Source: an uncultured Candidatus Saccharibacteria bacterium (GTDB lineage Bacteria > Patescibacteriota > Minisyncoccia > Phycocordibacterales > WO2-35-19). Taken from it: 64,000 bases of DNA. Shown one piece after another: positions 1,246-64,000 of this stretch. A model generated the notes under the pieces. That model worked only from the letters and a program-made list of their open reading frames with translations. It did no database searches and was not told the origin of the DNA. The position numbers and the translations under genes were made by a program. The stretch is from the NCBI GenBank assembly GCA_964589445.1, contig CAZPQX010000004.1:17632-81631 (forward strand). The letters are read 5' to 3'. The stretch's first letter is position 1. The number at the start of each line of letters is the position of its first letter.

Positions 1246-1246
1246 T

Positions 1247-1381
1247 TTAAACTGATATTTTGCTCCTACCTTTTCTTCTTCTCTCCTGCAAAACCTTTTT
1301 ACCACTAGTTGATTTGCTTCTTTTTAGGAAACCGTGCTTCTTAGACCTTTTTCTTTTTTTGGGTTGGTAAGTTACTGACAT
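1247..1381 (-). CDS. rpmH: Ribosomal protein L34
   Basis: Not in the ORF track (44 aa). My translation of the minus strand gives [44 protein letters not shown], which matches the L34 consensus MKRTYQPS.RKR...HGFR.RM.T..GR.VL..RR.KGR..L. Confidence 0.85.
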
Positions 1382-1525
1382 TTGTATTTACTTAATAAAC
1401 GAATCTTGTATAAAGTTGTTATTCGCACATTATAAACAAAATTGTCTATAAAAACAAGTTCCGCCAAAATAATTTAAATATATAATTGAGGCATCCAAAA
1501 ATTATTTGGTTAACGCAAAAAAAGA
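1382..1525. promoter_or_regulatory. AT-rich rpmH/dnaA divergent intergenic region (putative dnaA promoter, possibly part of oriC)
   Basis: 144 bp of very AT-rich spacer between divergent rpmH and dnaA. No perfect DnaA box was seen. Confidence 0.3.
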
Positions 1526-2866: not shown

Positions 2867-3082
2867 GTGTTTAAAACCTGTAGATAACTTGTTATTTATC
2901 TGGTTAGAAACTGTTGCAAAGTAAGTCATTTTTGGATAAAAATTAGATAGAGGCTTTTATTCAACCAGTTTATTAACAGTTATCAACAACCACTAGTCTA
3001 AATAACCTTTATGGTTTAAGGTTTAAAGTAGTAATCCACAAATCCACAGCCTTTATATAGTCCTTGTATTAAAAATATAGAA
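2867..3082. promoter_or_regulatory. dnaA-dnaN intergenic region with a DnaA-box-like 9-mer cluster; candidate oriC
   Basis: One-mismatch matches to TTATCCACA: ttatcaaca (2979-2987), taatccaca (3032-3040), aatccacag (3041-3049), and ttatccaaa on the minus strand (~2931-2939). AT-rich. Confidence 0.4.
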
Positions 3083-10455: not shown

Positions 10456-10630
10456 GAGGGGTACAAATCTCTAAGCAGCGTTCTGCCTCAGGTGGGATTA
10501 GACGTTAAATCAAGGAATAACCGGTTCCATTCTTCAAGGAGGGAGCGCTAGTTATTTCCTCAGAGTAATGTTTTGCTTTTGGTATAAATATTAAAAGTGC
10601 TGCTTAGAGATTTACACCTCTCCCTCCCAA
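10456..10630. ncRNA. Candidate structured ncRNA or MITE-like element in the pilB-ruvB spacer
   Basis: A perfect 15-bp inverted repeat (aaatctctaagcagc at 10465-10479; gctgcttagagattt at 10599-10613) with imperfect extension (gagggg.../...ccctcc) closes ~120 nt containing internal hairpins. The 335-bp spacer is noncoding. Confidence 0.3.
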
Positions 10631-16275: not shown

Positions 16276-16881
16276 ATGGCAGAAAATTTAAATATGGTTG
16301 TTATATTGAACAATATAAGGAGCTCGGAAAATGTCGGCTCTATTTTTCGTACCGCGGATGCCTTTGGTGTTAAGAAAATATACTTGTGCGGCTACACTCC
16401 TAGTCCCTTAGATAGGTTTAATAGGAAAAACACCAAACTCATCAAAGCTTCTTTGGGTGCGGAGGAGTTTGTGGAGTGGGAAAAGTGTGAAAATTTGGAA
16501 GAAGTTATTGAGAAAAATAGAATCAACTTAAAAAATTCTGAAAATTATGTCTCCTCGCTCAGCACGGATAAAAGCCTGCTGGCTTTTTCCTCTGCTCGGC
16601 TCGTCAGCCTGCGCAAGGCATGCTCGGAGAATAATTTTCAGAATTTTTTGATCGTTGGAGTAGAGCAGAGTGAAGACTCAATTGATTATCGTGAATTAAA
16701 AAAGTCATGTCTCGCATCTCATAAAAATAACATCGCTTTGGTATTTGGAAATGAGGTAGAAGGGTTGTCAGAAGAAGATTTGAAACTTTGTGATGTTATT
16801 GCCGAAATCCCTATGCAGGGTAAAAAAGAATCTTTAAATGTTGCCGTATCTGTGGGTATAATTCTTTCAAGTCTAAACTAA
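16276..16881 (+). CDS. SpoU/TrmH family RNA 2'-O-methyltransferase carrying an in-frame ~33-aa repeat-element insertion
   Basis: SpoU motifs NVGSIFRTADAFGV, LVFGNEVEGLS, IPMQGKKESLNVAVSVGIIL. The inserted segment NYVSSLSTDKSLLAFSSARLVSLRKACSENNF is encoded by the repeat at 16544-16643. Confidence 0.75.
   Translation: MAENLNMVVILNNIRSSENVGSIFRTADAFGVKKIYLCGYTPSPLDRFNRKNTKLIKASLGAEEFVEWEKCENLEEVIEKNRINLKNSENYVSSLSTDKSLLAFSSARLVSLRKACSENNFQNFLIVGVEQSEDSIDYRELKKSCLASHKNNIALVFGNEVEGLSEEDLKLCDVIAEIPMQGKKESLNVAVSVGIILSSLN
16544..16643 (+). repeat. Palindromic repeat element copy 1 (~100 bp, terminal inverted repeats aaaattat/ataatttt), inserted in-frame in the trmH-like gene
   Basis: ~92% identical to the reverse complement of 18434-18538. 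GC-richer than its surroundings. Internal hairpin aaaagcc-tgct-ggctttt. Confidence 0.7.
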
Positions 16882-17831
16882 TAATTGACTGTAAAAGTAT
16901 CAACTATAAGTCCGTTTTTGTCGTAGAGGTTTACCTTTTCGCGTTTTTCTCTCCATAGAGGTCCAAATTTATTCAAGAAAATACGATATTCATTTCCGGG
17001 GAAATTTGTATCACTAAAATGTTTGGCTACACATGAATTGTAGTTTATCTGTGTTTGCATATAAGTTTTGCAGGAAGAAGATACTGTATCGGGCAAGTCT
17101 CTTATATACTCACTATTTACGGTTGTGCAACGAGACAGGCTTTCAAGTAGGTCTATACACTCATCATTCCTGTCTAAATCATTTGAAAATTTAGGAAGTT
17201 TGTCATCTTCTATTAGAGGACATTCGGTTGAGAGGCTTGGATAAAATGTCCTATTTTCTTCAAAGTATCCAGTACATTTGTTTGTTCTAAACGATATGCC
17301 TATTGGTGAAAAACCTTTTGTTATTATTGCTCGGTCTCCGTTTTTGAGTACCACGTTGCTTTCATTTTTAGAAAAAGGGAAGGGGAGAAGGGAGGCCCCA
17401 CCTATAAAAACAAAATTTCCAGTAACTTCACTTTTAAAATACCAACCGGTAATATTTACCTCTTCGTCTTTACCAAGATTTGTGTAGAGGTATATGTACT
17501 CTTTGCTGGGGTCGTCATCCCACGACTTGGAGAGGCTCGAAAGTGTCACTTTGCCATAATAAGGTGAACGGGTGCTTTCTTCTATTTTTTTCTGTACTTC
17601 TTCTTCTAGGTTTTCAATTTTTCTCTCTGTATTTTTTATTTCTTCTTCTGGTGTTTGATTTGAATTTTGATTTCCAAATCCAAAGAAAGAATTATTATTG
17701 CTTTGTATGGAAGATGGGTTGTTGCTACTAGTTGCTTCTCTATTTTCAGCTGCTTTTTTTAGTGGGGCATATGCAATGCCGAGGATGATAAACCCTATGA
17801 GTATTACTAATGCTGGTGAAGCTTCTTTCAT
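16878..17831 (-). CDS. Hypothetical membrane-anchored protein with N/S/Q-rich linker, coiled-coil and a C-terminal Lamin-tail-domain (LTD)-like Cys-containing domain
   Basis: N-terminal TM, NSNQ low-complexity region, EEE/K-rich heptads, and LTD-like segment EEVNITGWYFKSEVTGNFVF...VLKNGDRAIITKG. Confidence 0.55.
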   Translation of the reverse strand: MKEASPALVILIGFIILGIAYAPLKKAAENREATSSNNPSSIQSNNNSFFGFGNQNSNQTPEEEIKNTERKIENLEEEVQKKIEESTRSPYYGKVTLSSLSKSWDDDPSKEYIYLYTNLGKDEEVNITGWYFKSEVTGNFVFIGGASLLPFPFSKNESNVVLKNGDRAIITKGFSPIGISFRTNKCTGYFEENRTFYPSLSTECPLIEDDKLPKFSNDLDRNDECIDLLESLSRCTTVNSEYIRDLPDTVSSSCKTYMQTQINYNSCVAKHFSDTNFPGNEYRIFLNKFGPLWREKREKVNLYDKNGLIVDTFTVNY

Positions 17832-18856
17832 TTAAATAATTTTTGATGAACAGGGCAGAAGTGACTACTTCTAGTTTTGACCACTATTCTTTCTATTATA
17901 CCAGAGCATTTATTTCTTGGACATTTTTTGCCTTTATTTCCGTATGCTTTATGGAAGTTTTGGAAACCTCCCTTCTCACCAAAAATATTTCTATAGTCTG
18001 ATTTGGAATCGCCGCCTTTGCCTATTGAAAATTTCAAAATCCTTTTCATTTCTTTGTAAATTTCTGACAGTTTGGTTTCTGGTACTTTGTTTGCGGGGGA
18101 GAGTGGGTGCACTCCTGTTTGCCAAAGTATTTCATCCGAGTAAATATTTCCTATACCAGCTATTATTTCTTGATCTAGGAGCACTGTTTTTATGGGTCTC
18201 ATTTTGCCCATTTCTTTTATTCTTTTTTTGAAATCCTTAATGTCTATTTTGAGAGCATCTGGGCCGAGTAGTGAAAGGCTCGCGTGGGTGTGTAGGGAGT
18301 CACTTTTAAATATAGAAACACTCGCAAATCTTCGCATGTCTGAAAGTACCAAATGTTTGCCGCACGAGAGGGAGGCTACAAAATGTATGTATTGGTTGTA
18401 GGGATCCTGAAGAGGGCCTTCTTCTATGGTTTTCCAAAAATTATTTCCTGAGCGTGCCTTTCGCAGGCTGACGAGCCGAGAAGAGGAAAAAGCCAGCAGG
18501 CTTTTATCCGTGCTAAGCGAGGGAACATAATTTTTGGAAACACGAAAGGGATATTTTTGGAGTTCATATTTCCCATACATCAAATGCCCGGTCATTTTTA
18601 TGTGTATAGAAATAGTGTACCCAGACGATAGATGGATCAAAATATTTTTACCAAGTCTTTCTACATTTTCTATTTTTGATCCGGTAGCCAACTTTTTTAA
18701 ATTTTTATAATGCTTCTCGTTCTTTATATTGTCTCTCTCTCCGTGACTTGTTGAAACGTGAAAATCAGACCATATTTCTAGTATGGTTTTGCCCATGGCA
18801 ACTTTTTTTAACCCTGTGACCGTTGTGTGTACTTCTGGAAGTTCAGGCATACCCAA
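17828..18856 (-). CDS. mutM: Formamidopyrimidine-DNA glycosylase (Fpg/MutM) carrying an in-frame repeat-element insertion
   Basis: N-terminal MPELPEVHTTV with catalytic Pro2/Glu3; C-terminal zinc finger CPRNKC...CPVHQ. Insert NYVPSLSTDKSLLAFSSSRLVSLRKARSGNNF. Confidence 0.85.
   Translation of the reverse strand: MGMPELPEVHTTVTGLKKVAMGKTILEIWSDFHVSTSHGERDNIKNEKHYKNLKKLATGSKIENVERLGKNILIHLSSGYTISIHIKMTGHLMYGKYELQKYPFRVSKNYVPSLSTDKSLLAFSSSRLVSLRKARSGNNFWKTIEEGPLQDPYNQYIHFVASLSCGKHLVLSDMRRFASVSIFKSDSLHTHASLSLLGPDALKIDIKDFKKRIKEMGKMRPIKTVLLDQEIIAGIGNIYSDEILWQTGVHPLSPANKVPETKLSEIYKEMKRILKFSIGKGGDSKSDYRNIFGEKGGFQNFHKAYGNKGKKCPRNKCSGIIERIVVKTRSSHFCPVHQKLFK
18434..18538 (-). repeat. Palindromic repeat element copy 2, inserted in-frame in fpg (opposite chromosomal orientation to copy 1, same sense relative to host gene)
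   Basis: Its reverse complement aligns base-for-base with 16544-16643 (~8 mismatches per 95 nt), including the terminal aaaattatgt.../...ataatttt ends. Confidence 0.7.
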
Positions 18857-18897: not shown

Positions 18898-20253
18898 CTA
18901 TTTTTCAGTTTTCAAAACTTTTATAAGCTCCTCTCGTGCGACTGTCGCATCGTCCCATTTTTGTTTAGTGCCGTTTGGACCCATTATATAAGGGTCTGTA
19001 CCTTTACCAGTAATCAAAACAGCTGTTTTTTCTTTTTCTTGCATGCTCTTAGCTTTTGTTAGGGCAGAGGCCACGGCAGTTCTTCTGTCCATTATTATTT
19101 CTACTTTTTTCTTGTCTTGTATTCCAGAAAGCATTTCCTCGAGTATTTGGCGCGGATCTTCGTCGTAAGGATCTTCGTTGGTAAGTATTATTTCATCGCA
19201 ATATTCTCCTGCTATTTTGCCCATTTCTGGTCTTTTCCATTTATCTCTTCCACCACCCGTGTTTCCAAGTACACAAATCTTTTTTTGGTTTTTATAAGTT
19301 TCGTACACTGCTTTTAGGGAATCTGGGGTGTGGGCATAATCTACAACCACATCAAAGTCTTGTCCTTCACTTATTTTTTCCATTCTGCCTCTTATAAAAT
19401 TTATTCCTTCAAGCGACTTTTTTATAATCTCCTCTTTTATTCCTATAAATTTAGCAAGGGCGATACAACCGAGCATGTTTGATACATTGAATATTCCGGG
19501 TAGATTACTCCTTATAACTGTTTTACCAACTTGAAATATAGAACCACTTTCATCTGCTTTTATATTTATAGCATCGCTAAGAGAGTAGGGGATTTTATTT
19601 TTTATTCTTAGAGAAAGAAACTTTTCTGATTCCTTGTCGTCTATGTTTGCTACTAGTACTTTGCCCCCGTAATCAAAACAAAAATTTTTATCAGTGTGGG
19701 AACCCTTTAGGGAGGAACTGTAAAAAATTTTGTTTTGATTACGGGGTTCTAGCTCCCTCCCTATATTCAGTTTTGCATCGACGTATTTTTCATAAGAGCC
19801 ATGTGACTCAATATGCTCAGGTGCCAGGTTGGTAAAAATGAGTGCATCTAAAAAGAGAAATTTATGGCCAAATCTGAGCGTTGCCTCACTGCTTATTTCG
19901 AGGATTGCAAATCTCGCGCCTTTATTTAGAGCTTCTCTCAATAATCTTTGTGTAAAAAATCTACCCCTAGTTGTCATTTTTGAGAGATTTTTCCTTTCTT
20001 CCCCAACAACTTTTGTTCTTATGGTATTTGAAAGTACTGTTTTTTCGCCACATTCTTCTAAAATCGCATTCATTATTTCTGTGGTTGTAGATTTACCCTT
20101 GGTACCAGTCACCGCTATCACATACATTTTTTTAGCAGGGAAGCGGTATATGATCGCTCCAAGTAGAGAGAGTGTGAAGTGGTAGTAGGGTTGTAACTCC
20201 TTGAAAATTTTTTTAGGAATAATTTTTCTGCCTAAATCTAATATCTTTTCCAT
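18898..20253 (-). CDS. Mur ligase family protein (probably MurE-like UDP-MurNAc-tripeptide ligase)
   Basis: ATP-binding P-loop AVTGTKGKSTTTEIM; Mur ligase middle and C-terminal domains; GKGTDPY near the C-terminus resembles MurE GKGHE.Y. Confidence 0.6.
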   Translation of the reverse strand: MEKILDLGRKIIPKKIFKELQPYYHFTLSLLGAIIYRFPAKKMYVIAVTGTKGKSTTTEIMNAILEECGEKTVLSNTIRTKVVGEERKNLSKMTTRGRFFTQRLLREALNKGARFAILEISSEATLRFGHKFLFLDALIFTNLAPEHIESHGSYEKYVDAKLNIGRELEPRNQNKIFYSSSLKGSHTDKNFCFDYGGKVLVANIDDKESEKFLSLRIKNKIPYSLSDAINIKADESGSIFQVGKTVIRSNLPGIFNVSNMLGCIALAKFIGIKEEIIKKSLEGINFIRGRMEKISEGQDFDVVVDYAHTPDSLKAVYETYKNQKKICVLGNTGGGRDKWKRPEMGKIAGEYCDEIILTNEDPYDEDPRQILEEMLSGIQDKKKVEIIMDRRTAVASALTKAKSMQEKEKTAVLITGKGTDPYIMGPNGTKQKWDDATVAREELIKVLKTEK

Positions 20254-21788: not shown

Positions 21789-24700
21789 ATGAACTTTAAT
21801 TCAATAAAAAAGGTAATTTTATTTTCTCTATTTCTTCTTTTTGGAAATACCATGGTTGCTTCGGCTGCGAGTACAGTCACTATAAATAACTACTACAATC
21901 TTAATAGTGGTCAGACTTGTAACCTAAGCTCTTCTTCTATCGAAACCTGTAGCTCTTTTGTAAGTGATCTTGGAGGTTACTCTTTTTTACCAGTCTCCAA
22001 TAACAAAATGAATTACAACTCCGCTTCCTACGGAGGCGAGTCCATTACAAATTTTACCAATAATGTAATAGGTCCAAATGCGGTCACTCAATATGTAGGA
22101 AGTAGTGTCGCGTCTAATGTTGCAGTGGCTTATGTTCCCGGGGATATTACTGCAGTTAGTGCCACATATCTCTGTAGTGGACCTGGTGGCGTGAGGCAAT
22201 ATTCTGTCCCGGTCACACAAACAAACGGTACAGTATCAACTTTTGCTAATGTTGACACAACAGCACAGGATTGTTCTGTAACTATAAATTTCAATCAAAT
22301 TAACACCAATTCTGGTGATGGCGATAGTGGAAGCGGGGGCACACCCCCTCCAACTCCTCCACCCCCACCTATAATAGACGATCCTTTTTCAAGTATTTCC
22401 ATTTCAGCCACACCAGAATCAACAACAGTTGATTATGGAGTCGCTACTACGACTTACTTCACTGTAGTTGTTAATAAAAATGGAGATTTTCCTGCAGATA
22501 TTTTGGTTGACTGTGAAAGATTTTCTATACCAGGCAACGGAGGGGGCGAGTGTTCTTTTGTAGATAACTCCAATAATCCTATACCAAGGACCCAAGCAAA
22601 CCAACCTACACAACCTGCTGCATTTTCTAGGTACCCAAAATATTATATGAACCCAGGACTTTCCTCTGTAACACTTAGACTTGCTGTAAGAAATTATGAT
22701 CAGTATGGAGGTGTTTCGAGCGTTAAGACTCATACAATACCTATACAGGCTGGGCTCTTGGATTCTCCAATACCAATAATTACTTTCAATGGTCCACAAA
22801 TACAAAGCCCAAGATGTAGTGGTAGTTGCACAGCAGGAGACACTATAAACTTAGTCGTTCAAAATCCAGCTATTTGTGAACCTACTACTTCTGTAAATGC
22901 TACTTCGCCAGCTAATGCAAATAGGACATTTACTTTATCCTGGGCTCCTGTTTCGAATGCTCTAAATTATACAGTTGAGGTGAGAGACCAAACCTCTTGT
23001 GTATCACAGGGGTGCGGACCCGTTGTTTATAGCTCAACTGTATCGGGTACTTCCGCAACCATACCTTTTGGTGGTGATGTCGCTGGTGTACCAAATAAAA
23101 GATTTGGTTACTTTATAGGCACAAATTATTCTCCAGCAAGAACTGCTTGTAGTAATATTGGCTCGGTATTTGTCTCTCAACCTACGGGAGGATCTACGTC
23201 TACACCATCAGGTCCGTCTGGAACAGTAAATATTACTTGTAACGGATCTCAAAATGTAACCATAAGCTCGGGGCAGAATTGTAACCTAGCCTGGAACTCT
23301 TCTAATATTGTGGCTGGTTCTTGTAACGCTTCTGGTAACTGGTCTGGTGCAAAAGCGGGGAGTGGCACAGAAACTAGGTCAAACATAACTCAAAATAGTA
23401 GCTACACTATTACTTGTAGAGACAACAATGGCGCCAATGTGACTTCAACTGCTAATGTAAATGTAGCAAATGCGCCTACTGCAGATATAAGGTGTAATGG
23501 AGGTGATGCGTGTACTGCCATTAGATTTTCAAGTACACCAAACCTCACATGGAGTTGTACAAATACTAATGGAGGTTCTGCCAGTGTTTCTCCTGGGGGG
23601 TACACTGCTCACCCCAATGGTGCGGTCACGGTAGGGCCATTTTCTGGGACAAGTGCGACTTACAACCTAACATGTACTTCAGCTACTGGTGCAGTGGCTA
23701 CCGATAGTGTGACTATAAACGTGGTAAACAATGTAGCACCAGGTACTCCTGCATACAGGGTAGACTTATACCCAGATCCTCTTACGTTTAATGTTGAGAA
23801 GGGTGGAAGTTGGAGTGGTAGTGCAACCATTACTAACATAGGTGATACGACTCTAAATATAAGTGCTTTTATAGATAATGTTGTAAGTAATTTTGGTGGT
23901 TGGTATTCTCAAATAAACCCTTCTCTTGTTTGTCCAAATCTTTTGCCATCAACATTTTATACATGTTCTGTTGGTTTTGGTGGACATACTATAAATGTTG
24001 ATCAGTTTACCACTAACACCTTTGACCTAAACTTTACCGAGCCAACAGCAGGTAATAGGCTTGATATACCAGTAACTGTAAATGTGGGTGGAAGACCGTC
24101 TTGTCCCACTGCTTCTGTTTCTCTTTCAAGTAACACCGTGGATGTAGGAAGTTCAGTTACAGCCAGTGCCCCAAATAGTGATCTTTCAAATTGTACTTAT
24201 TCTACAAGCAATGCCTCCGTTGCATCTCTTTCTGGTAACCCAAGGAATGTTGTAAATGGTGTAAGTGTCGGTACTTCAAATATATCAGCTCAGTGTGATT
24301 TTATGAGTAATTGGAGATGTAATGTAAATCCAGCTACATTAAACGTAGTAAACCCATCAGCTCCTTCTCCTACTACGTACTCATTCTCTGTGGCTCCAAC
24401 ATCACTTTCTTTTAGTGCAATCCAAAATGCAGCGGCGCCTGCTTCTAAGACAGTGACTGTGACAAATACAGGTACAGGAGCTTTGAATATAACTAGAACT
24501 CAAAACATGACGAGCGGCCCATTTAACTGGGGTAGCAGCGACTCTTCAAATTTCTCTCTTGCAGTAGGTGCTTCTAGAGTTGTCACTGTTTCTATAAATA
24601 GTACTGCAGGTGACCCAGGCAACTATGATGGCATAGTTACTTTTACTGATAGTAATGCTGGTTCAAAACAAGTACCTGTGGCTTTGGTGCTCGCACCATC

Positions 24701-24971
24701 TTCTTCTACTAGAACAATAGATGTAGGTACAAACTGGTGCGGTACGGTGACAAGCTCTCCAGCTGGGATAAGTTGTGGTACTACATGTAATGCTGGGTTT
24801 ACTTACAACAACACAGTGACTCTCACCGCTACTCCAAATACTCAATGCCTCTTTATTGGGTGGCTAGGGGACTGTGCTGGGCAAGACGCTACTTGTGACT
24901 TACTCATGACTTCAAATAGGAGTGCCACTCCAATATTTGGCCTCAAACCTTTCAACTACGAGGAATTCTAA
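21789..24971 (+). CDS. Giant secreted Cys/Thr/Ser/Asn-rich surface protein (1060 aa) with a proline-rich linker
   Basis: Signal peptide (LFLLFGNTMVASAAS), GDGDSGSGGTPPPTPPPPPI linker, numerous Cys-containing beta-rich repeats (Ig/FN3-like by composition). Confidence 0.7.
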   Translation: MNFNSIKKVILFSLFLLFGNTMVASAASTVTINNYYNLNSGQTCNLSSSSIETCSSFVSDLGGYSFLPVSNNKMNYNSASYGGESITNFTNNVIGPNAVTQYVGSSVASNVAVAYVPGDITAVSATYLCSGPGGVRQYSVPVTQTNGTVSTFANVDTTAQDCSVTINFNQINTNSGDGDSGSGGTPPPTPPPPPIIDDPFSSISISATPESTTVDYGVATTTYFTVVVNKNGDFPADILVDCERFSIPGNGGGECSFVDNSNNPIPRTQANQPTQPAAFSRYPKYYMNPGLSSVTLRLAVRNYDQYGGVSSVKTHTIPIQAGLLDSPIPIITFNGPQIQSPRCSGSCTAGDTINLVVQNPAICEPTTSVNATSPANANRTFTLSWAPVSNALNYTVEVRDQTSCVSQGCGPVVYSSTVSGTSATIPFGGDVAGVPNKRFGYFIGTNYSPARTACSNIGSVFVSQPTGGSTSTPSGPSGTVNITCNGSQNVTISSGQNCNLAWNSSNIVAGSCNASGNWSGAKAGSGTETRSNITQNSSYTITCRDNNGANVTSTANVNVANAPTADIRCNGGDACTAIRFSSTPNLTWSCTNTNGGSASVSPGGYTAHPNGAVTVGPFSGTSATYNLTCTSATGAVATDSVTINVVNNVAPGTPAYRVDLYPDPLTFNVEKGGSWSGSATITNIGDTTLNISAFIDNVVSNFGGWYSQINPSLVCPNLLPSTFYTCSVGFGGHTINVDQFTTNTFDLNFTEPTAGNRLDIPVTVNVGGRPSCPTASVSLSSNTVDVGSSVTASAPNSDLSNCTYSTSNASVASLSGNPRNVVNGVSVGTSNISAQCDFMSNWRCNVNPATLNVVNPSAPSPTTYSFSVAPTSLSFSAIQNAAAPASKTVTVTNTGTGALNITRTQNMTSGPFNWGSSDSSNFSLAVGASRVVTVSINSTAGDPGNYDGIVTFTDSNAGSKQVPVALVLAPSSSTRTIDVGTNWCGTVTSSPAGISCGTTCNAGFTYNNTVTLTATPNTQCLFIGWLGDCAGQDATCDLLMTSNRSATPIFGLKPFNYEEF

Positions 24972-25016
24972 GCCAAACCTAAGCCTAAATTAGGACATAA
25001 ACTTTTATGAAATAAA

Positions 25017-25046
25017 ATAACCCTATTGACAAACAGGGTTATTTTA
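25017..25046 (+). terminator. Intrinsic terminator of the giant secreted-protein gene
   Basis: aaccct-attgacaaac-agggtt followed by atttta. Confidence 0.55.
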
Positions 25047-25114
25047 TGATATTATATTAGGTAGATACCAGCGGTTAAACCGTCGGTCAAGATTTTTGAT
25101 ATTAGGAGACTACC

Positions 25115-26578
25115 ATGTCCTTTCGCTTATTTTTTGCGATGTACCTTGTCTTTGGTACAACCTCGTCCTTCTCTCAAATGGTTCCGCCCGAACGGGCAGA
25201 GCTAGTCAGTATCGGAGGACAATGGGGGGACGTGTTGCCTCCCAAAACCGAAGTCCGTGCCGTGGAGGTTCTCGGGTCGTCTGACCCGCTGCTGCCTTGG
25301 CAGGAGGAACTCTTCCAGAAGACGGGCTATGCTCGTCTCTTGGAACAGCGCGGCGCGGGTTTTTCCCACATTCGCGGAGCGGCTGTCGTCGTGATGGGTA
25401 CGGGGGTAGATGCAAATCACCCCGACCTTGTCGGCCGGGTGGATTGTGCCGTCTCGGAGACGTTCATTGAAGGAGGGGGAGACCCCTGTGTCGATGAATA
25501 CGGACATGATACCGCTGTTGCCACCATTGGCTTCGCCAATGGTGGGGACGGCATTGGGATGAAAGGATTTGCGAATAATACGCGAATCATCTCCCTCAAA
25601 GTCATGACGACCGGGATCAACGAATTCGGTCGGACAGTACTCAAGACTTCTCTTGACGCCATCATTAAGGCGTTCAGACGGGTTGGGGAGCTCGCTTTGA
25701 CCGAGGAAGCAGTGATTGTTATTGCTGCCTTTTCGATCGACGGCGTTGACCCGACGCTTCGAGGACTCTTCGCTGAGCTCGAGAAACAGGATCGAGTTTA
25801 TGTTGTCAGTTCAACTGACAACATACGCTTCTTGAACTCGGAGACCCAACCGGGTCTTCCATGTTCGGCGTCGACGCTCTCCAATGTGGATTGCGTCGCT
25901 ACGTTGACCATGGATGGCGGGCTCGCTCCCTGGAGTGCTTATGGCAAGCGTATCACCCAAACTGGGCGTGCTGCTTCATCCGGTGTGATCGCTGGGTACC
26001 CTGGAGGTCGCTACGGCAACTTCCTAGGGAACAGCGGAAGCGCTCCTCAGGTTGCGGCTCTTGCTTCACTCGTGTGGGGCTACGCGTACGGGAGGGGGAG
26101 GAACCTCACGGCTGCAGAGCTTAAAATGCTTATGCAGAGAGGCGCGAGCTTTTCTCCTGGCCTCGTCTCGGCGATCGTGCAGTACGAGGTGGCCACACCC
26201 CACACCTTGGACGCCTACCGGCTGTTTGAGGTAGTTGACCTTTACCTCGAAGGGAAGCTCCAGGCGCTCACCGAAGGGACTCTCAGGGTCTCTGGGGTGA
26301 AGTCGGGAGAGTTCGGTGTCGCTACTGACCTAAAGGTCCGTGAGCGGTACACAATTGTCGGACAGGGTTTTTCGGAGGGCTACTTGCTATTACTGAACGG
26401 GATGCCGATCCGGTTCAGTTACTCGGGGGAAATCGCGGAGTTTGAGCTCCCTGAGGCAGCATCTTTCTTCTCTTTGAGAGGAGGAGACAATGTCTTGTAC
26501 TTCGCCAGAGTGGACGAGGAGGGGAGGGCCTGTCCTTTCTCAGTCACTAAAGTCCTTAGCGGATTCCAAATCCGCTAA
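25115..26578 (+). CDS. Subtilase (peptidase S8)-like protein encoded in a foreign GC-rich island; the catalytic Asp may be substituted
   Basis: Signal peptide; VVVMGTGVDANHPDL (subtilase Asp-region, with G where the catalytic D of IDTG is expected); GHDTAVATIG (His-region); GNSGSAPQVAALAS (Ser-region, Ser conserved). RBS aggaga at -10. GC ~58-60% versus ~35% in the flanks. Confidence 0.7.
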   Translation: MSFRLFFAMYLVFGTTSSFSQMVPPERAELVSIGGQWGDVLPPKTEVRAVEVLGSSDPLLPWQEELFQKTGYARLLEQRGAGFSHIRGAAVVVMGTGVDANHPDLVGRVDCAVSETFIEGGGDPCVDEYGHDTAVATIGFANGGDGIGMKGFANNTRIISLKVMTTGINEFGRTVLKTSLDAIIKAFRRVGELALTEEAVIVIAAFSIDGVDPTLRGLFAELEKQDRVYVVSSTDNIRFLNSETQPGLPCSASTLSNVDCVATLTMDGGLAPWSAYGKRITQTGRAASSGVIAGYPGGRYGNFLGNSGSAPQVAALASLVWGYAYGRGRNLTAAELKMLMQRGASFSPGLVSAIVQYEVATPHTLDAYRLFEVVDLYLEGKLQALTEGTLRVSGVKSGEFGVATDLKVRERYTIVGQGFSEGYLLLLNGMPIRFSYSGEIAEFELPEAASFFSLRGGDNVLYFARVDEEGRACPFSVTKVLSGFQIR

Positions 26579-26651
26579 GGCACGCAATGGTTCGCCGCGA
26601 CACGCGGCAAAACAAAAGCGAGTTCGTTTTGTTGTGGAGGGTGACTCTACG

Positions 26652-26676
26652 GCAAGCGACTCGCTTTTTATCTTTT
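26652..26676 (+). terminator. Intrinsic terminator at the right edge of the GC-rich island
   Basis: aagcga-c-tcgctt palindrome followed by ttttatctttt. Confidence 0.5.
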
Positions 26677-26690
26677 ATTAATTTTTAATT

Positions 26691-28469
26691 TTACTGAACA
26701 ACTATCTCAATCCAAGTGTTTGCTGGTACCAAGCCTCCAAAAGCTGCTATTTGGTTGCTTGGATTGTTGTTTGTGCCTATTGAGACAATGTGCTGAGCAT
26801 TTGCTGGGCTTGGATTGTTCTCAGTGAGCAGTCTTATTTTAGATACATTTTTGGTTGATCCATAGTCGAGGACTATCCAGCCAGTACGATCCATCCTTGT
26901 GTTGTCTATGTTTGCAGCTATGCAAGCGTCTATTGTTTCGTTTAGTTTGGACCAGTCACAGCCTGGGGCAGTTTCTCCCGCATTCCATGTTGTGCTTATA
27001 TTTCCGTCATAAACCTTGTTTGCACCACCTGTATTGTTGTCTCTAAAGTAACTGTTTTTACACCACTCACAACTTACTTGGCCTGATGTTGGAGTTATTT
27101 TATTTCCCTGCAAATCATAAATTTCTATTTCTCTCCAACCTACCCAAGACCTACTCTTTGTATCAACTTTTAAATATCTGAAAGAAAGGGGACCTGTAAT
27201 TGTCTTTGAAGGGGAGAAGGTGGTAGGGATGGTAACAGTAGTACCTGTGTTTGTATTGCCTCCAGTACTTGTGTTGCCGGTGCCATTTAATTGAGCTAAG
27301 AGTGAATCTATAAGTGCTTGCAAACTACTTATCTGGGTTTGTAGTCCGCCTGCGGTGGTATTGCTGCCTGTAGTTGAGCCTCCTGTGGTGGACCCGCCGG
27401 TGTTCGAAGATGAGCAGGTCATTTTTGAATTCATAAAACTCAAAGTTGATGGACCTACAAACCCGCTACCTCGAGTCAAACCAACAGGGGAGAGTATGTA
27501 AGAAGCATACTTTTCTTGGTAAGCGATCACAGCATTATAAACTTGTGTATCGAAGGTTGTCTTTGATTGAGACAACAAGCCTTCTTTTACTAGTTCTGCT
27601 GTGAGTAGCGCTACTTCTGATCCGCTGTCTCCCATTCTTAGGCTAGAGGTTATCCTGGCGCAACTACTATTGTTTGTGGCTGTTGAGTTGTTGCTAGGTG
27701 TAATTGGGCTCGTTGGTGTTGTGAAGGTTGGGAGGGTGTAGCTTGAGCTTCCGGAAGTGATAAATGAAAGTGCATTTTTGGCTGCATTTACTTGGTTTGC
27801 CACAACTCCACTTATTGTAGTGGGGTAGTTTGTGCTACCTGAAGCAAATCCTGACCCCGTGCTTGTATTTGTGTTGGTATTTGTACTAGTGTTGTTTGTG
27901 CCCGTGTTTGTGTTGGTGGGAGTTGCACTAGTAAATAGAGACCATGTCGGGTTTAGATTTGAGTTTGTGAGTGCTGTGCCGTTATATCCTGCGAGTAGCA
28001 CAGCGTCGTGTCCAGTGCTCCCGTTTACTGTACAAGGAATATTGTAGTAGTAACCAGGAAGCCCTGGTGCAGATAATGGGTATGTAGCGATGCTTACTTG
28101 GCAGCTCACATTTAGTCCTCTCGCAAGACCTTCTTGTCTTGCTATTTGTGCACAAGCCAGGGCATCCTCCATGTTTAGTCTTGGATCACCGGTACATACA
28201 GTAGAGCTGGAGTTGCTATCGGAATTTGAATTATCAGAATTATTTGTACCCACATTGGAAAGATTTTGGTAGAAAGTTCCGTAGTAAGTTTGATTTGCTT
28301 GTTGTAGCTGGCTCTGTGTTGCAGGCTGTCCTGTAGCAGGATCTGTACCAGTAGAGAGTATTATCCTGGCTATTTCCTGATCAGAAGTTAGAGTTGATTG
28401 TGCAAATCCGTAAAATGGGTAAACAAGAAATAAGGAAAGAGTCAGGATTGATATTGTTTTTTTATTCAT
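26691..28469 (-). CDS. Secreted protein with peptidoglycan-binding-like domain, Q-rich heptad motif and C-terminal F5/8 type C (discoidin) domain
   Basis: Signal peptide; MGDSGSEVALLTAELVKEGLL (PG_binding_1-like); LQTQISSLQALIDSLLAQLNG; C-terminal KVYDGNISTTWNAG...WIVLDYG discoidin signature; Thr/Asn-rich linkers. Confidence 0.65.
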   Translation of the reverse strand: MNKKTISILTLSLFLVYPFYGFAQSTLTSDQEIARIILSTGTDPATGQPATQSQLQQANQTYYGTFYQNLSNVGTNNSDNSNSDSNSSSTVCTGDPRLNMEDALACAQIARQEGLARGLNVSCQVSIATYPLSAPGLPGYYYNIPCTVNGSTGHDAVLLAGYNGTALTNSNLNPTWSLFTSATPTNTNTGTNNTSTNTNTNTSTGSGFASGSTNYPTTISGVVANQVNAAKNALSFITSGSSSYTLPTFTTPTSPITPSNNSTATNNSSCARITSSLRMGDSGSEVALLTAELVKEGLLSQSKTTFDTQVYNAVIAYQEKYASYILSPVGLTRGSGFVGPSTLSFMNSKMTCSSSNTGGSTTGGSTTGSNTTAGGLQTQISSLQALIDSLLAQLNGTGNTSTGGNTNTGTTVTIPTTFSPSKTITGPLSFRYLKVDTKSRSWVGWREIEIYDLQGNKITPTSGQVSCEWCKNSYFRDNNTGGANKVYDGNISTTWNAGETAPGCDWSKLNETIDACIAANIDNTRMDRTGWIVLDYGSTKNVSKIRLLTENNPSPANAQHIVSIGTNNNPSNQIAAFGGLVPANTWIEIVVQ

Positions 28470-28482
28470 GTTTTTTGTCTAA

Positions 28483-31197
28483 CTACTTAGTAGTACATGA
28501 CCATGTTTCATCTTTAAATACCTGATTTGCTTGTCCAAAGTTACATACCGCTGCAGTTCTAAACCAGTATTTTGTTTTTGGTTTAAGACCCGTGACCTGT
28601 ATGCCGCCTCCTGCCATATCACCATCTTGTTGTGCATACCCCACATTCACACCCCATATCTGGTCTAGCTTCAAGAAACACTCTGAGGCATTGGCGCAAC
28701 CTCCTTTGACTGCTGCTTCACCTTTACCACCGTTATCCTCTGCTACTCTAAGGACCATTCTTGCATTAGGGAAGTTTTTTGGATACCAAGCCGTTGTTAC
28801 AGGAAGTCCGACATCAACCATTGTTGATGTAACATTTGAACAGCTACTATTTCCTGTCCAACCTACTTGAGGCATACCAACTTTTGTAAAGTCTAGGGTA
28901 GCCAGTGCTTGTTCACATGAAGAAGTAAATGTGGGGGCAGCAGGGGGATTTACTTTTGTTCCATAATCTCCGCTCTTGTACTCTGTATTTACTTGTCCAT
29001 TTAGGAATATATTTTTGCTATCTCCAAATATTCCATTGTCTGCTACTACGCGCACAAAGAAGTTTGCTTGTGTTTTTTGTACTGCTTGATCGAGCACACC
29101 TCCAGATAGGCTTCCGTATAATCTACTTCCAGCGTGTACCTGTCCCGGTACTGGTAGGGAAGTCTCTGGAGGTATCGTGAAGTTAAATGTGTTCACACCT
29201 TGTCCACTAGAAATACCTTCAGCAAGAGTTGCCTCCACACCCAGTTCGTTTTCGTGTCCAGGCACTACTCCTCTTGTAAGAAGATATATACTTACATTTC
29301 TTACTCCGCTTGGAGCCTGCCAAGAAACTGTACCAGTCCTATCTGAGGTTGTATTGACACTAACATTTACTATACCCATACACGACTGAGGTACTGTTGT
29401 AAGTGTGGTTGCTGTATTAGGTCTAAATACACCTTTTGTTGCGTCATATGTTACGTCCCAAGCACCAGCTGCTTTTCTAGCCAATTCTGCATTAAAGTAC
29501 CATAGCCACTGATACCAACCTTGAGGTTCTCCATGTGGGGATGAGGCTCCAAAATCATTACCTACAGCTGAACTTGCTTCTCCTACAAATAATTTTTCTC
29601 CGCGCTCTCCTAGGCTACATGATGTTGCTCTACCCCAATATTGCTGGTTTGCACTACAGAAACCGTCTGGGGTGCCATCTCCAACTCCACAGTATTCACC
29701 GACGCTGCATGATGCGTCGTCAAACCCTAGTCTTTTTGCTTGTGATACGAATAGGTCGGCACATTCTTGGGCATATCTTCTCTGGTCAGCCAAGCTTACT
29801 GTGTTTATAACCTTTCCGTCCGGACCTGCGTGGTTGAACCCAGCACCACCCGCTGCATAGTGACACCTTTGCCAAGTTTTCATTTCTTGAGCTAGACTTG
29901 AAGAAACTGTAAATCTTGGTGAAATAGCAGTTCCTGGTGAGAATTTCTGATTTCCTAGTGCCGCAAGACACGAATTAACATTTTCTGATTTTGGAGTTGA
30001 AGCGGGGCATTGATCAAACTGACAACTCTTCAAATTGTTTCTATATGTAAGGCTTCCATCTGGGCATACCTCAGGATAAGGGTCACATGTGCCGTATATT
30101 CCTGTTATCTTACTATTATTTTCACATTCAGAGAATGAACATATTCCTCCTGCAAAAATTTTTCCGTGGGCCGTTGTTCTGTTAGGGCAAACCCTTAGAG
30201 TGTCAGTAGGACAAACGTTATTAGGAGGATTTACAATAGTTACAGTCATGGTCTTGGCATTTGTTAAGGAGTTTGCTTGGGCTACAGTAGGACATTGTTC
30301 ATTTGAACATACTGCTGTACCCGTGTTAGTACAGATTACGAAATTTTTACATTGAGAATCTGAAGTATAAACTTTTGCGGTTACTACCTGGGTACCTGTT
30401 GGATACCCTGCGTAAGGATCTTGTGGAACTGGGCGAGTTATTATTGTTAGTGGCCCTGTTGCTGTGTTGGTCGAGCTTCCTGTTGTTGTAGTGCCGGTTG
30501 TACCTATAGGAATGTTTGCTACTGTTGTATTTCCACCAAGTTTTGCCAAGAGAGATTGTACTATTGCAAGGAGTTGGTTTATTTGAGCCTGGAGGCCTGC
30601 GATCGTTTGGTCTCCAGATGTGGTTGTTGTGGTGGTCGTAGTATCTGCTGTAACTGAAGTACCTCCTCTTGAGATTGGTATTTCCGAAACTGACATAACT
30701 CTGCCACTTTCGTTCCTAGTATTGAAATATACGCTTCTTATTATTGCACATTCTGGGTCGCTGCTACCAAGACTTTCATTACATAGACTGCTTGGTCCAG
30801 CGAAATATTTAACTACATACCTTGTCGCCGGATCGAGTTTTACTGCTAGTGGATTTGATGATGTGCGTTCTCTTCCAGCGGGGTCTACGTCTACTACATA
30901 GGAGTATTCATTTGTAGCAGGGGCTACAACGAACCTACCTTCAGAGTCCCGAGTTCTTTTCCATGTGAAATTGTATGTCCACTTGCCTCCACTAAACTCG
31001 ATTGCTTGTGTTTGGAGAAGGAAATTTACATCCCCAGAGTCTGTTAGTGTTGCTACTGGGTATGATGTGCTTTGAGCGAAAGCGCCCATCTTTGATCCAA
31101 GAAACACAGCAGACAAAATCAGTATCACGGCCGCTGGCAGGGTAGCTGAAATTATTTTTTTATTTAACATAAACCTTATTTTTAATTTAATCCACAA
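28483..31197 (-). CDS. Giant secreted Cys-rich protein (904 aa) with FN3-like C-terminal domains and Q-rich heptad motif
   Basis: Signal peptide/TM; poly-Thr (TTTTTTTT) linker; LQAQINQLLAIVQSLLAKLGG; FN3-like segments (TGTVSWQAP...; LKPKTKYWFRTAAV). Confidence 0.65.
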   Translation of the reverse strand: MWIKLKIRFMLNKKIISATLPAAVILILSAVFLGSKMGAFAQSTSYPVATLTDSGDVNFLLQTQAIEFSGGKWTYNFTWKRTRDSEGRFVVAPATNEYSYVVDVDPAGRERTSSNPLAVKLDPATRYVVKYFAGPSSLCNESLGSSDPECAIIRSVYFNTRNESGRVMSVSEIPISRGGTSVTADTTTTTTTTSGDQTIAGLQAQINQLLAIVQSLLAKLGGNTTVANIPIGTTGTTTTGSSTNTATGPLTIITRPVPQDPYAGYPTGTQVVTAKVYTSDSQCKNFVICTNTGTAVCSNEQCPTVAQANSLTNAKTMTVTIVNPPNNVCPTDTLRVCPNRTTAHGKIFAGGICSFSECENNSKITGIYGTCDPYPEVCPDGSLTYRNNLKSCQFDQCPASTPKSENVNSCLAALGNQKFSPGTAISPRFTVSSSLAQEMKTWQRCHYAAGGAGFNHAGPDGKVINTVSLADQRRYAQECADLFVSQAKRLGFDDASCSVGEYCGVGDGTPDGFCSANQQYWGRATSCSLGERGEKLFVGEASSAVGNDFGASSPHGEPQGWYQWLWYFNAELARKAAGAWDVTYDATKGVFRPNTATTLTTVPQSCMGIVNVSVNTTSDRTGTVSWQAPSGVRNVSIYLLTRGVVPGHENELGVEATLAEGISSGQGVNTFNFTIPPETSLPVPGQVHAGSRLYGSLSGGVLDQAVQKTQANFFVRVVADNGIFGDSKNIFLNGQVNTEYKSGDYGTKVNPPAAPTFTSSCEQALATLDFTKVGMPQVGWTGNSSCSNVTSTMVDVGLPVTTAWYPKNFPNARMVLRVAEDNGGKGEAAVKGGCANASECFLKLDQIWGVNVGYAQQDGDMAGGGIQVTGLKPKTKYWFRTAAVCNFGQANQVFKDETWSCTTK

Positions 31198-31310
31198 TTA
31201 ATAAAATTCTCTTTTTTCAGAGATTGATAACTAATAAAATTATCGCAATTTGGTACCTTTGTGTCTATCGCGTGTGTGTATAAGTTGATATAATTTTTTA
31301 AAACAAAACA

Positions 31311-62431: not shown

Positions 62432-64000
<1,569 letters not shown>

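What the first reader, a model, noticed from the sequence alone, without database searches (positions are those of the whole stretch)
18434..18538. Second copy of the palindromic element, in-frame in fpg/mutM on the opposite strand
The reverse complement of 18434-18538 aligns with 16544-16643 at about 92% identity, including both termini. Because fpg is on the minus strand, the element is translated in the same sense in both hosts (NYVPSLSTDKSLLAFSSSRLVSLRKARSGNNF). The differences are scattered (c/t, g/t, c/a, t/c, g/a) rather than A-specific.
Basis: seen in the sequence. Interest (0 to 1): 0.65.

Follow-up and report, generated by a model that had tools for sequence, protein, structure and literature searches.

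The report
In-frame mobile palindrome inside fpg
The fpg DNA-repair gene of this small-genome (Patescibacteria-type) bacterium carries a recently inserted ~115-base, GC-rich folded palindrome that is read through as a floppy protein loop; it has a sister copy in a nearby rRNA-methylase gene and near-identical cores in other genes of other bacteria, so it resembles the "protein-coding palindromes" of Rickettsia, here in a new group of organisms.

Summary
Window 18427-18545 (minus strand, in fpg) and 16530-16649 (plus strand, in a SpoU methylase gene) are two copies of one palindromic element. Both are in frame and in the same sense. A syntenic close relative (L016, ~82% DNA identity) lacks both copies, so they are insertions.

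Each copy has a 71-nt GC-rich core closed by a 14-24 bp AT-rich perfect stem. The predicted core fold is a three-way junction: a long hairpin with loop TGCT, GGCY-CGTC-RGCC, and TGC-GCAAG-GCA.

Seven further copies were found in other Patescibacteria. They sit at the same fpg site in three lineages, antisense in KsgA in three lineages, and in RNase R. Cores in different genes and organisms are 96-99% identical, while fpg flanks are about 70% identical.

Across 9 copies, 28 of 43 base pairs changed on both sides, almost only Watson-Crick to Watson-Crick. Indels are mirrored between the arms. Loop and junction bases are more conserved than stems.

The outer stem differs by site and partly consists of native host codons plus their inverted copy. 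No reverse transcriptase or transposase was found in the window, and mismatches are not A-biased, so it is not a DGR. The inserted peptide is predicted to be a disordered loop.

Best reading: an RPE/REP-like selfish DNA palindrome. How it moves is unknown.

The parts
18427..18545 (-). Copy B, the finding: the complete palindromic element inside fpg.
   Evidence: CM hit 18427-18542 at 125.6 bits. The fold has z -3.7/-4.9.
18437..18550 (-). Block of 114 nt (38 codons, PFRVSKNYVPS...SGNNF) present in the window fpg but absent from the 91%-identical orthologue P0001/L016. It lies between the Y codon and the conserved W codon.
   Evidence: Protein alignment A2 and DNA alignments.
18450..18520 (-). 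71-nt GC-rich core of copy B (TCGCTTAGCACGG...GGCACGCTC), predicted three-way junction.
18527..18540 (-). Left arm of the outer stem of copy B (TTTCCAAAAATTAT).
   Evidence: I21, 14 bp, 100% complementary.
18431..18444 (-). Right arm of the outer stem of copy B (ATAATTTTTGGAAA). Its last bases include the native, conserved Trp codon of Fpg (18434-18436).
16530..16649 (+). Copy A: the sister element inside the SpoU-family rRNA methylase gene. Arms are 16530-16548 and 16631-16649 (19 bp perfect), the inner stem is TCTCC/GGAGA, and the core is 16555-16625.
   Evidence: (134.7 bits).
16516..16644 (+). Stretch of 43 codons (NRINLKNSENYV...CSENNFQN) that replaces 3 codons (LGG) of the L016 SpoU orthologue.
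17828..18856 (-). Host gene of copy B: formamidopyrimidine-DNA glycosylase (Fpg/MutM), 342 aa.
   Evidence: Pfam PF01149, PF06831, PF06827.
16276..16881 (+). Host gene of copy A: SpoU-family RNA methyltransferase, 201 aa.
   Evidence: Pfam PF00588, matched in two stretches.
19665..19746 (-). Related phenomenon, not a copy: an arms-only in-frame palindrome in the Mur ligase gene (26-nt arms, 96% complementary, 30-nt spacer). It is also absent from L016.

Best explanation
**What it is.** It is a small, non-autonomous, selfish DNA palindrome of the same general kind as Rickettsia palindromic elements and intragenic REPs, here in a Patescibacteria (CPR)-type genome.

**The conserved unit.** This is a ~71-nt GC-rich core in a ~36% GC genome. 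Its predicted fold is a three-way junction with fixed loops (TGCT, CGTC, GCAAG). A long AT-rich perfect stem closes the junction.

**Shown here.**
- The element is an insertion, because empty sites exist in a close relative.
- It occurs in several unrelated housekeeping genes, in both orientations, always in frame.
- Its cores are far more alike across genes and organisms than the host genes are.
- Pairing is kept by Watson-Crick double changes and mirrored indels, while loop bases stay fixed.
- Part of the outer stem is native host coding sequence paired with an inverted copy of it.
- The encoded 38 residues are predicted to be a disordered loop between two beta strands of Fpg.

**Inferred.**
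- The folded form that matters is single-stranded or cruciform DNA, not mRNA. The element works in both orientations and avoids G-U pairs.
- The structure plus loop sequence is what a trans-acting machinery recognises to copy the core to new sites.
- After or during insertion, replication template switching copies one flank or arm onto the other. This keeps the arms perfect and extends the palindrome into unconstrained host codons.
- The peptide is a tolerated passenger. Only in-frame, stop-free insertions in surface loops or linkers survive.
- The SpoU copy was probably copied from the fpg copy. It carries the fpg-type inner stem (AAAATTATG) and shares the P3 variant GGCT/AGCC.
For: - **Empty sites.** L016 is syntenic (Mur ligase-Fpg-LTD-SpoU) at 75-86% DNA identity. 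It lacks the fpg copy, the SpoU copy and the Mur-ligase palindrome. The SpoU site is also empty in L020/L022.
- **Other copies.** These are L002/L028 (KsgA, antisense), L009 (RNase R, in the CSD2-RNB linker), L017, L018/L019 and L020-22 (same fpg site), and L023 and L025 (KsgA).
- **Core identity.** It is 96-99% among the L017, L002 and L009 cores. The fpg flanks of window copy B against L017, L018 and L020 are only 67-73% identical.
- **Structure.** The consensus is a three-way junction. On 9 copies, 93.5% of cells are paired and 28 of 43 pairs changed on both sides, against 14.3 in shuffles (0/500). Slid controls give 32-55% paired (7-copy version). G-U pairs are very rare.
- **Mirrored indels.** TTTCCAAAAATTAT/ATAATTTTTGGAAA versus TTCCAAAATTAT/ATAATTTTGGAA.
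- **Loops versus stems.** Unpaired core columns differ from consensus at 4.5% and paired columns at 12.1%. L018 has 10 paired changes and 0 unpaired changes.
- **Host-derived arms.**
  - KsgA: the arm encodes ISKK(K/R)F(F), which is conserved in all orthologues, including the empty P0132.
  - fpg: the arm encodes F-Q-N, which is native in empty orthologues.
  - Window copy B: the conserved Trp codon lies inside the arm.
- **No linked enzyme.** No RT, transposase or integrase was found among the scanned window ORFs.
- **Protein context.** In the AF2 model (mean pLDDT 82), residues 105-136 have pLDDT <50 and are coil, between strands 97-101 and 139-143.
- **Literature.** Template switching is documented to create and repair perfect hairpins (PMC8794818). 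In-frame palindromes are documented in Rickettsia and for REPs (PMC10969869, PMC3733652).
Against: - No mobilising enzyme was identified, and no mobility event was observed directly.
- Copy number is low: 2 in 64 kb, and none elsewhere in ~200 kb of related contigs.
- The family is rare in public data. Exact-pattern scans of GTDB genomes and JGI metagenomes gave one true hit each. These scans are demonstrably incomplete, because L017 matches the pattern but was not returned.
- Same-site occupancy of fpg and KsgA in diverged lineages could partly reflect vertical inheritance with loss, rather than repeated insertion.
- Exact insertion boundaries are uncertain by several nt, because the empty-site relative is only ~82% identical.
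- The excess of paired over unpaired changes (2.7-fold) is not far from the 2-fold that neutral mirroring by template switching would give. Selection on the fold is therefore not proven.
- Which arm is native differs between sites (the right arm in KsgA, the left arm in the L017/L018/L020 fpg copies), so no single polarity rule emerged.
Confidence: 0.62

Rival explanations
1. Classical MITE: a deletion derivative of an insertion sequence, cut and pasted by a transposase supplied in trans. The transposase would recognise fixed terminal inverted repeats and make target-site duplications.
For: The element is small and non-coding for any enzyme. It has inverted-repeat ends, two copies in one genome, and empty sites in a relative.
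Against: - The terminal repeats are not conserved between insertion sites. Only the internal core is.
- No direct target-site duplication is visible at the SpoU or fpg junctions.
- Arms overlap native host codons.
- No transposase is in the window.
Confidence: 0.1
2. Functional cis-acting RNA structure. The fold would be selected because, in the mRNA, it controls translation, stability or processing of the host genes.
For: There is strong covariation with conserved loops. The P4 loop varies GCAA/GAAA, and both are GNRA-type. All hosts are nucleic-acid enzymes.
Against: - KsgA copies are antisense to the mRNA, so the transcript there carries the complement.
- G-U pairs are essentially absent.
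- A close relative does without it in both genes.
- At the same sites, other lineages carry unrelated GC-rich inserts or arms only.
- There is no Rfam match, even at E<=10.
Confidence: 0.08
3. No dedicated mobility at all. The palindromes would be created and copied purely by replication errors: template switching and microhomology-mediated templated insertion from another copy. The lineage may lack hairpin-removing nucleases, and similar cores would spread by recombination of gene fragments between relatives.
For: - The arms-only palindrome in the Mur ligase gene arose in the same lineage, and there is an arms-only KsgA allele, L026.
- Indels are mirrored between arms.
- Copy A carries part of copy B's stem, so the ends are imprecise.
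- The same sites are hit in diverged lineages.
- Three synonymous sites upstream of copy B match L017/L020 rather than L016.
- The literature documents template switching (PMC8794818).
Against: - It does not explain why loop and junction bases of the core are more conserved than stems in old copies.
- It does not explain why cores in different genes of different organisms are 96-99% identical.
- Flanks of copy B are otherwise closest to L016, so there is no clear imported tract.
Confidence: 0.15
4. Diversity-generating retroelement, template/variable repeat pair.
For: Two ~90% identical repeats lie within 2 kb, one of them inside a gene.
Against: - Mismatches are not A-specific: 2 of 12.
- No reverse transcriptase is in the window.
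- Both repeats are palindromes inside conserved housekeeping genes, not at the 3' end of a variable-protein gene.
- Both are absent from a close relative.
Confidence: 0.01

Closest known systems
Rickettsia palindromic elements (RPE-1 to RPE-10), the 'protein-coding palindromes' of Ogata/Claverie, as summarised in PMC10969869 and PMC3733652
   Same: - Palindromic repeat of ~100-150 nt in a reduced, AT-rich genome.
- Inserted in frame into unrelated housekeeping genes without destroying them.
- The encoded peptide sits at a tolerated position.
- No linked transposase.
- Empty sites exist in relatives.
   Different: - Different phylum (Patescibacteria) and no known sequence relationship.
- Copies occur in both orientations relative to the host gene.
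- The conserved part is an internal 71-nt three-way-junction core, while the closing stem changes with the site and is partly host-derived.
- Much lower copy number in the sequence available.
Intragenic REP / REPIN elements (GTAG- and CGTC-tagged REPs; RAYT-associated), PMC3733652 and PMC3116915
   Same: - GC-rich hairpins conserved as structures, occasionally found inside genes, often replication or repair genes.
- Thought to move as folded single-stranded DNA.
- CGTC REPs also lack a known transposase.
   Different: - REPs are 20-40 bp single hairpins with an unpaired terminal tag and occur in tens to thousands of mostly extragenic copies.
- Here CGTC is the loop of a 4-bp internal hairpin.
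- The unit is a 71-nt multi-hairpin core.
- Copies are few, and all of them are intragenic.
Template-switch-generated perfect inverted repeats, including coding palindromes of Nematomorpha mitochondria (PMC8794818, PMC6649704)
   Same: - Perfect inverted repeats inside translated genes.
- Multi-base 'compensatory' changes and mirrored indels that fit one-step copying of one arm from the other.
- Extension of arms into neighbouring sequence.
   Different: - Those repeats are made of local sequence only.
- Here a foreign, GC-rich core shared between genes and organisms sits at the apex.
- The arms encode variable loop residues rather than conserved protein segments.
Mobile GC clusters of yeast mitochondrial DNA, including optional in-frame clusters in var1 (recalled from memory, not checked here)
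   Same: GC-rich palindromic modules in a very AT-rich genome. They insert into AT-rich sites, sometimes in frame in a protein gene, and are polymorphic between strains.
   Different: They belong to an organelle, are shorter (30-50 bp) and have no three-way junction. No sequence relationship is expected. This comparison is a lead only.

Membership tests
Rickettsia palindromic elements (RPE) | Palindromic repeat of ~100-150 bp present in several copies | tested here: met
   Elements of 116-120 nt with folding z -3.7 to -5.5. There are two copies in the window and seven elsewhere.
Rickettsia palindromic elements (RPE) | Inserted in frame in unrelated protein genes, leaving them intact | tested here: met
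   SpoU, Fpg, KsgA and RNase R ORFs are all intact with their Pfam domains on both sides of the insert.
Rickettsia palindromic elements (RPE) | Insert lies at a structurally tolerated (surface or loop) position | tested here: met
   In the AF2 model of the window Fpg, residues 105-136 are coil with pLDDT <50, between two strands. The RNase R copy lies in the CSD2-RNB linker.
Rickettsia palindromic elements (RPE) | Sequence homology to an RPE family consensus; Rickettsia host | not tested
   No RPE sequences were available in the tools. The host genes' best named relatives are Patescibacteria, so it is not filed as an RPE, only as the same kind of thing.
Classical MITE | Terminal inverted repeats of conserved sequence shared by all copies | tested here: not met
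   Outer arms differ completely between the fpg/SpoU, KsgA and RNase R copies. Only the core is shared.
Classical MITE | Direct target-site duplication | tested here: not met
   None is visible at the SpoU and fpg junctions when compared with L016. Boundaries are uncertain by a few nt.
Classical MITE | Cognate IS or transposase with the same ends in the genome | not testable with these tools
   Only 64 kb of the genome is available. No transposase is in it.
REP / REPIN (GTAG or CGTC tagged) | 20-40 bp hairpin with an unpaired terminal GTAG or CGTC tag and an 8-9 bp (CGTC) or 5-13 bp (GTAG) stem | tested here: not met
   CGTC is present, but as the loop of a 4-bp internal hairpin (GGCY-CGTC-RGCC). 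Definition taken from PMC3733652.
REP / REPIN (GTAG or CGTC tagged) | Abundant, predominantly extragenic copies; RAYT gene | tested here: not met
   There are two copies in 64 kb, both intragenic. No Y1 transposase is in the window.
Diversity-generating retroelement | Reverse transcriptase next to a template repeat | tested here: not met
   No RT domain was found in any scanned window ORF.
Diversity-generating retroelement | Template/variable repeat differences confined to adenines | tested here: not met
   2 of 12 substitutions start from A.
Known structured RNA families (Rfam 15), including self-cleaving ribozymes | Covariance-model match | tested here: not met
   There is no hit to either copy, even at E<=10, and none at gathering threshold.

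The most novel reading that the evidence does not exclude
The 71-nt three-way-junction core is a new type of mobile module of CPR/Patescibacteria.

- It is recognised as folded single-stranded DNA by an as yet unidentified enzyme.
- It lands in, or builds for itself, AT-rich hairpins made from host coding sequence.
- It can carry part of a previous host's stem to the next site.
- It repeatedly hits the same protein loops in diverged lineages (the fpg N-terminal loop, and the KsgA loop before EKKFFEI), where different GC-rich cores replace one another.
Probability: 0.25. Interest if true: 0.8.

Novelty: new variant of a known kind. Interest (0 to 1): 0.55.

Why it matters
In-frame palindromic selfish DNA has been regarded as a near-unique feature of Rickettsia, plus a few REP and MITE cases.

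Finding the same lifestyle in Patescibacteria would show that reduced, AT-rich genomes repeatedly tolerate, and perhaps generate, palindromes inside essential genes. The case here adds a conserved multi-hairpin core, host-derived stems, insertion hot spots, and cores shared between genes and organisms.

It also gives a clean natural test case for a more general question: is 'compensatory' covariation evidence of function, or a by-product of replication template switching?

Practically, such inserts inflate and distort protein families from CPR metagenomes. They also produce strong covariation signals that could be mistaken for new RNA genes.

Tried and rejected
- **Rfam** (gathering on the window; E<=10 on 16300-18800): nothing at the element.
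P0002, found later, contains the peptide, so this is an index limitation.
- **HMMER search** of 1.84 billion representatives with the 35-aa peptide: only two spurious hits to repeat proteins with a PSISADGS-IAF motif.
- **Exact-pattern scans.**
  - GTDB genomes gave 1 true and 2 chance hits.
  - JGI metagenomes gave 1 true and 11 chance hits.
  - Two degenerate patterns on viral contigs gave nothing.
- **blastn** against plasmids and phages: nothing.
- **Covariance-model searches** of all held loci, and of the window with filters off: no extra copies. The next best hits are the Mur-ligase palindrome and terminator hairpins, which match only the stem.
- **A fixed polarity rule** ('right arm is always the native one'): rejected. 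In the L017/L018/L020 fpg copies the left arm carries the native F-Q-N codons.
- **Import of copy B with a recombination tract** from an L017/L020-like fpg: only 3 synonymous sites support it, and the rest of the flanks are closest to L016. Left open.
- **Composite transposon** formed by the two inverted copies: rejected. The gene between them is syntenic in relatives that lack the copies.
- **dN/dS between the two peptides** (0.43): too few sites to be informative.
- **Literature searches** found no description of this in CPR/Patescibacteria.
Full report
**1. The observation**

Window 16400-16800(+) and 18300-18700(-) contain the same ~110-nt sequence.
- The repeat finder gives arms 16536-16643 / 18432-18539: 108 nt, 88% complementary, 1,788 nt apart.
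- A shared exact 32-mer occurs twice in the window against none in 100 shuffles.
The 71-nt cores are 94.4% identical.
- The hosts are a SpoU-family methylase ORF (16276-16881, +) and an Fpg ORF (17828-18856, -).
- Both copies are in frame and in the same sense.
Perfect arms are 19 bp in copy A (16530-16548/16631-16649) and 14 bp in copy B (18431-18444/18527-18540), each followed by a 4-5 bp inner stem.
- The two copies differ in the outer stem by two base pairs changed on both sides (TTCTGAAAATTAT/ATAATTTTCAGAA versus TTCCAAAAATTAT/ATAATTTTTGGAA).

**2. They are insertions**

- The closest Fpg homologue, P0001 (91% identity over aligned residues, 303 aa versus 342 aa), lacks the segment.
- Its contig L016 is syntenic with the window (Mur ligase, Fpg, LTD protein, SpoU) at 75-86% DNA identity.
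- L016 is empty at the fpg site, at the SpoU site, and at a third palindrome in the Mur ligase gene (window 19665-19746).
- In fpg, 114 nt (18437-18550) are extra, between a Tyr codon and the conserved Trp codon.
- In SpoU, 43 codons (16516-16644) replace three.
- The SpoU site is also empty in the more distant L020/L022, so that copy is a gain in the window's lineage.

**3. Relatives elsewhere**

- Exact-pattern scans gave one copy in a MAG labelled Saccharibacteria (L002, extended as L028) and one in a JGI metagenome contig (L009).
- Fpg orthologues of 57-64% identity carry the same element at the same site: L017, L018/L019, L020-22.
- The L002 copy lies in KsgA/RsmA in antisense orientation. 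KsgA orthologues give two more copies, L023 (decaying) and L025.
- The L009 copy lies in the linker between the CSD2 and RNB domains of an RNase R.
- Cores in L017 (fpg), L002 (KsgA) and L009 (RNase R) are 96-99% identical. The fpg flanks of window copy B against L017, L018 and L020 are only 67-73% identical.
- Copies A and B share the P3 variant GGCT/AGCC and the inner stem AAAATTATG, so they are sister copies within this genome.
- The family is otherwise rare. There are no further copies in the window, even with filters off, or in about 200 kb of related contigs. Nothing was found in viral, plasmid or phage collections. No protein representative carries the peptide.

**4. Anatomy**

- RNAalifold on seven copies gives a long outer stem, a 2-bp inner closure and a three-way junction. 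The junction has three hairpins:
  - P2, a long imperfect hairpin with loop TGCT
  - P3, GGCY-CGTC-RGCC
  - P4, TGC-GCAAG-GCA
- On nine copies aligned to the model (an alignment that leans towards the structure), 93.5% of cells pair. Twenty-eight of 43 pairs changed on both sides, against 14.3 in shuffles (0 of 500). Slid controls give 32-55% paired. The model-free 7-copy alignment gives 24 of 43 against 8.8.
- Examples of double changes:
  - P2: AAAAGCC/GGCTTTT versus ATTTCCC/GGGAAAT (L018) versus ATTTTC/GAAAAT (L025)
  - P3: GGCT/AGCC, GGCC/GGCC, GCTC/GAGC, GTGC/GCAC
- G-U pairs are almost absent, and indels are mirrored between arms.
- Within the core, unpaired columns differ from the consensus at 4.5% and paired columns at 12.1%. 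L018 has ten paired and no unpaired changes.
- The peptide is not conserved where the stems change (DKSLLAFSS versus DISLLGNSS versus RKNLRAFRF).

**5. The arms are partly host sequence**

- In KsgA, the arm next to the core encodes ISKK(K/R)F(F). This motif is present in all orthologues, including the empty one (P0132: ISRIRFGAVKEKRFFEIL). The other arm (EKNFFL) is its inverted copy.
- In the L017/L018/L020 fpg copies, the left arm carries the native F-Q-N codons.
- In window copy B, the right arm contains the conserved Trp codon.
- In copy A, the outermost right arm overlaps the native Phe codon.
- The native side differs between sites, so there is no fixed polarity.
- At the same two protein loops, other lineages carry other things:
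  - Unrelated GC-rich palindromes, for example CCCCCTCCCCTGATCAAGGGGAGGGGG directly after the element in L017.
  - CCCCCCTTAATGTAAGGGGGG replacing all but the last 11 nt of the core in L024, whose host protein is 92% identical to that of L002.
  - Arms without a core (L026).
- These loops are therefore hot spots where cores are gained, replaced and lost.

**6. What it is not**

- **Not a DGR.** Twelve substitutions separate A and B, only two from A. No reverse transcriptase was found among about 45 window ORFs. They are ordinary housekeeping genes from the origin region: rnpA, yidC, dnaA, dnaN, PBP, RuvABC, PolA, aminoacyl-tRNA synthetases, RecA, FtsK and others.
- **Not a classical MITE.** Termini are not conserved between sites, no target-site duplication is visible, and no transposase is present.
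- **Not a GTAG/CGTC REP.** CGTC is an internal loop, the unit is a 71-nt multi-hairpin, and copies are few and intragenic (definition from PMC3733652).
- **Not a known RNA family**.
- **Not a composite transposon.** The gene between the two copies is syntenic in relatives without them.

**7. Effect on the protein**

An AlphaFold2 model of the window Fpg has mean pLDDT 82 and pTM 0.81. Residues 105-136, the inserted peptide, have pLDDT below 50 and no secondary structure. They lie between strands 97-101 and 139-143. All nine copies keep the host frame open, including L009 with a +1 indel in P3 and L025 with a 12-nt expansion. This argues that they are translated through. The core is open in four of six frames (my reading of the sequence), so lack of stops is only weak evidence on its own.

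**8. Mechanism**

*Shown:*
- insertion polymorphism
- spread between genes and organisms
- structure kept by Watson-Crick double changes
- conserved loops
- host-derived arms

*Inferred:*
- The relevant fold is DNA (single-stranded or cruciform). The element occurs in both orientations and avoids G-U pairs.
- The fold plus loop sequence is what an unidentified trans-acting activity recognises.
- The arms are kept perfect and extended into unconstrained host codons by replication template switching. This process is documented to create and repair hairpins in one step (PMC8794818).

*Main rival:* no dedicated machinery exists at all, and template switching plus recombination do everything. The arms-only palindromes favour this. 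The loop conservation and the 96-99% identical cores in unrelated genes argue against it. A regulatory RNA role is unlikely because of the antisense copies and the dispensability in a close relative.

**9. Comparison and novelty**

- The nearest known things are the in-frame Rickettsia palindromic elements and intragenic REPs (PMC10969869, PMC3733652), and template-switch-derived coding palindromes (PMC6649704).
- This case has the same lifestyle in a different phylum.
- Its distinctive features are a conserved three-way-junction core, site-specific and partly host-derived stems, both orientations, and hot-spot loops shared by several core types.
- I found no description of it for CPR/Patescibacteria in the searchable literature. 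That library is incomplete.
- I rate it a new variant of a known kind, of moderate interest.

Noticed in passing
window 19665-19746: A 26-nt-arm, 96% complementary palindrome with a 30-nt spacer lies in frame in the Mur ligase gene (18898-20253, -). It has no GC-rich core and is absent from the close relative L016. It looks like a de novo inverted duplication of downstream coding sequence.
   Followed up: partly
window 10456-10622: An intergenic 24-nt inverted repeat (88% complementary) encloses 119 nt of moderately GC-rich sequence, between ruvB and a T2SSE ATPase gene. It could be an unannotated structured RNA. There is no Rfam hit at gathering threshold.
   Followed up: no
window 47006-47185: A 17-nt inverted repeat (94% complementary) has arms 146 nt apart, both inside the MetRS coding region. 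One arm encodes the SISR motif region. It may be a 'coding palindrome'.
   Followed up: no
window ~48200-48260: A local GC spike (0.61 versus 0.38 background) with a palindromic core (GCCCGCCTGTC...GACAGGTTTGGGC) lies inside the TatD gene. It may be another in-frame GC-rich insert; TatD aligns with ~26 extra residues.
   Followed up: no
window 37947-41432: The isoleucyl-tRNA synthetase (1161 aa) carries a complete histidine-phosphatase (His_Phos_1) domain at residues 504-668, inserted within the class I synthetase domain.
   Followed up: no
L018 1055-2110 (fpg orthologue P0009): A 24-nt GC-rich unit, CCCTTCGACAAGCTCAGGGCAAG (peptide NPSTSSGQ), occurs twice in the same gene at two different loops. 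Similar inserts are seen in P0023, P0029 and P0014. It is a second family of in-frame mini-inserts.
   Followed up: partly
L017 ~2090-2150; L024 ~2780-2840: Other GC-rich palindromes (CCCCCTCCCCTGATCAAGGGGAGGGGG and CCCCCCTTAATGTAAGGGGGG; peptides PPPLIKGRG and PLTPLTLRGG) sit next to the element or replace most of it at the same protein loops.
   Followed up: partly
window 193-4189: rnpA, yidC, then dnaA and dnaN: the window starts at the chromosomal origin region. The two element copies lie 12-17 kb from it and are in opposite orientation relative to replication.
   Followed up: no
window 62685-62819: A 24-nt inverted repeat (96% complementary) encloses 87 nt within the first 400 nt of the 23S rRNA gene. 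It may be an expansion or insertion in the rRNA.
   Followed up: no
window 22000-31200: This region has higher GC (0.42-0.48 versus ~0.36). It holds large ORFs without Pfam families (26691-28469, 28483-31197), a subtilase and a 1060-aa repeat protein. It may be a horizontally acquired island.
   Followed up: no
window 18580-18600 (fpg codons ACC GGG CAT upstream of copy B): Three synonymous sites just upstream of the element match the element-bearing orthologues L017/L020 rather than the closest relative L016. This may be a short conversion tract, but the evidence is too little to decide.
   Followed up: partly
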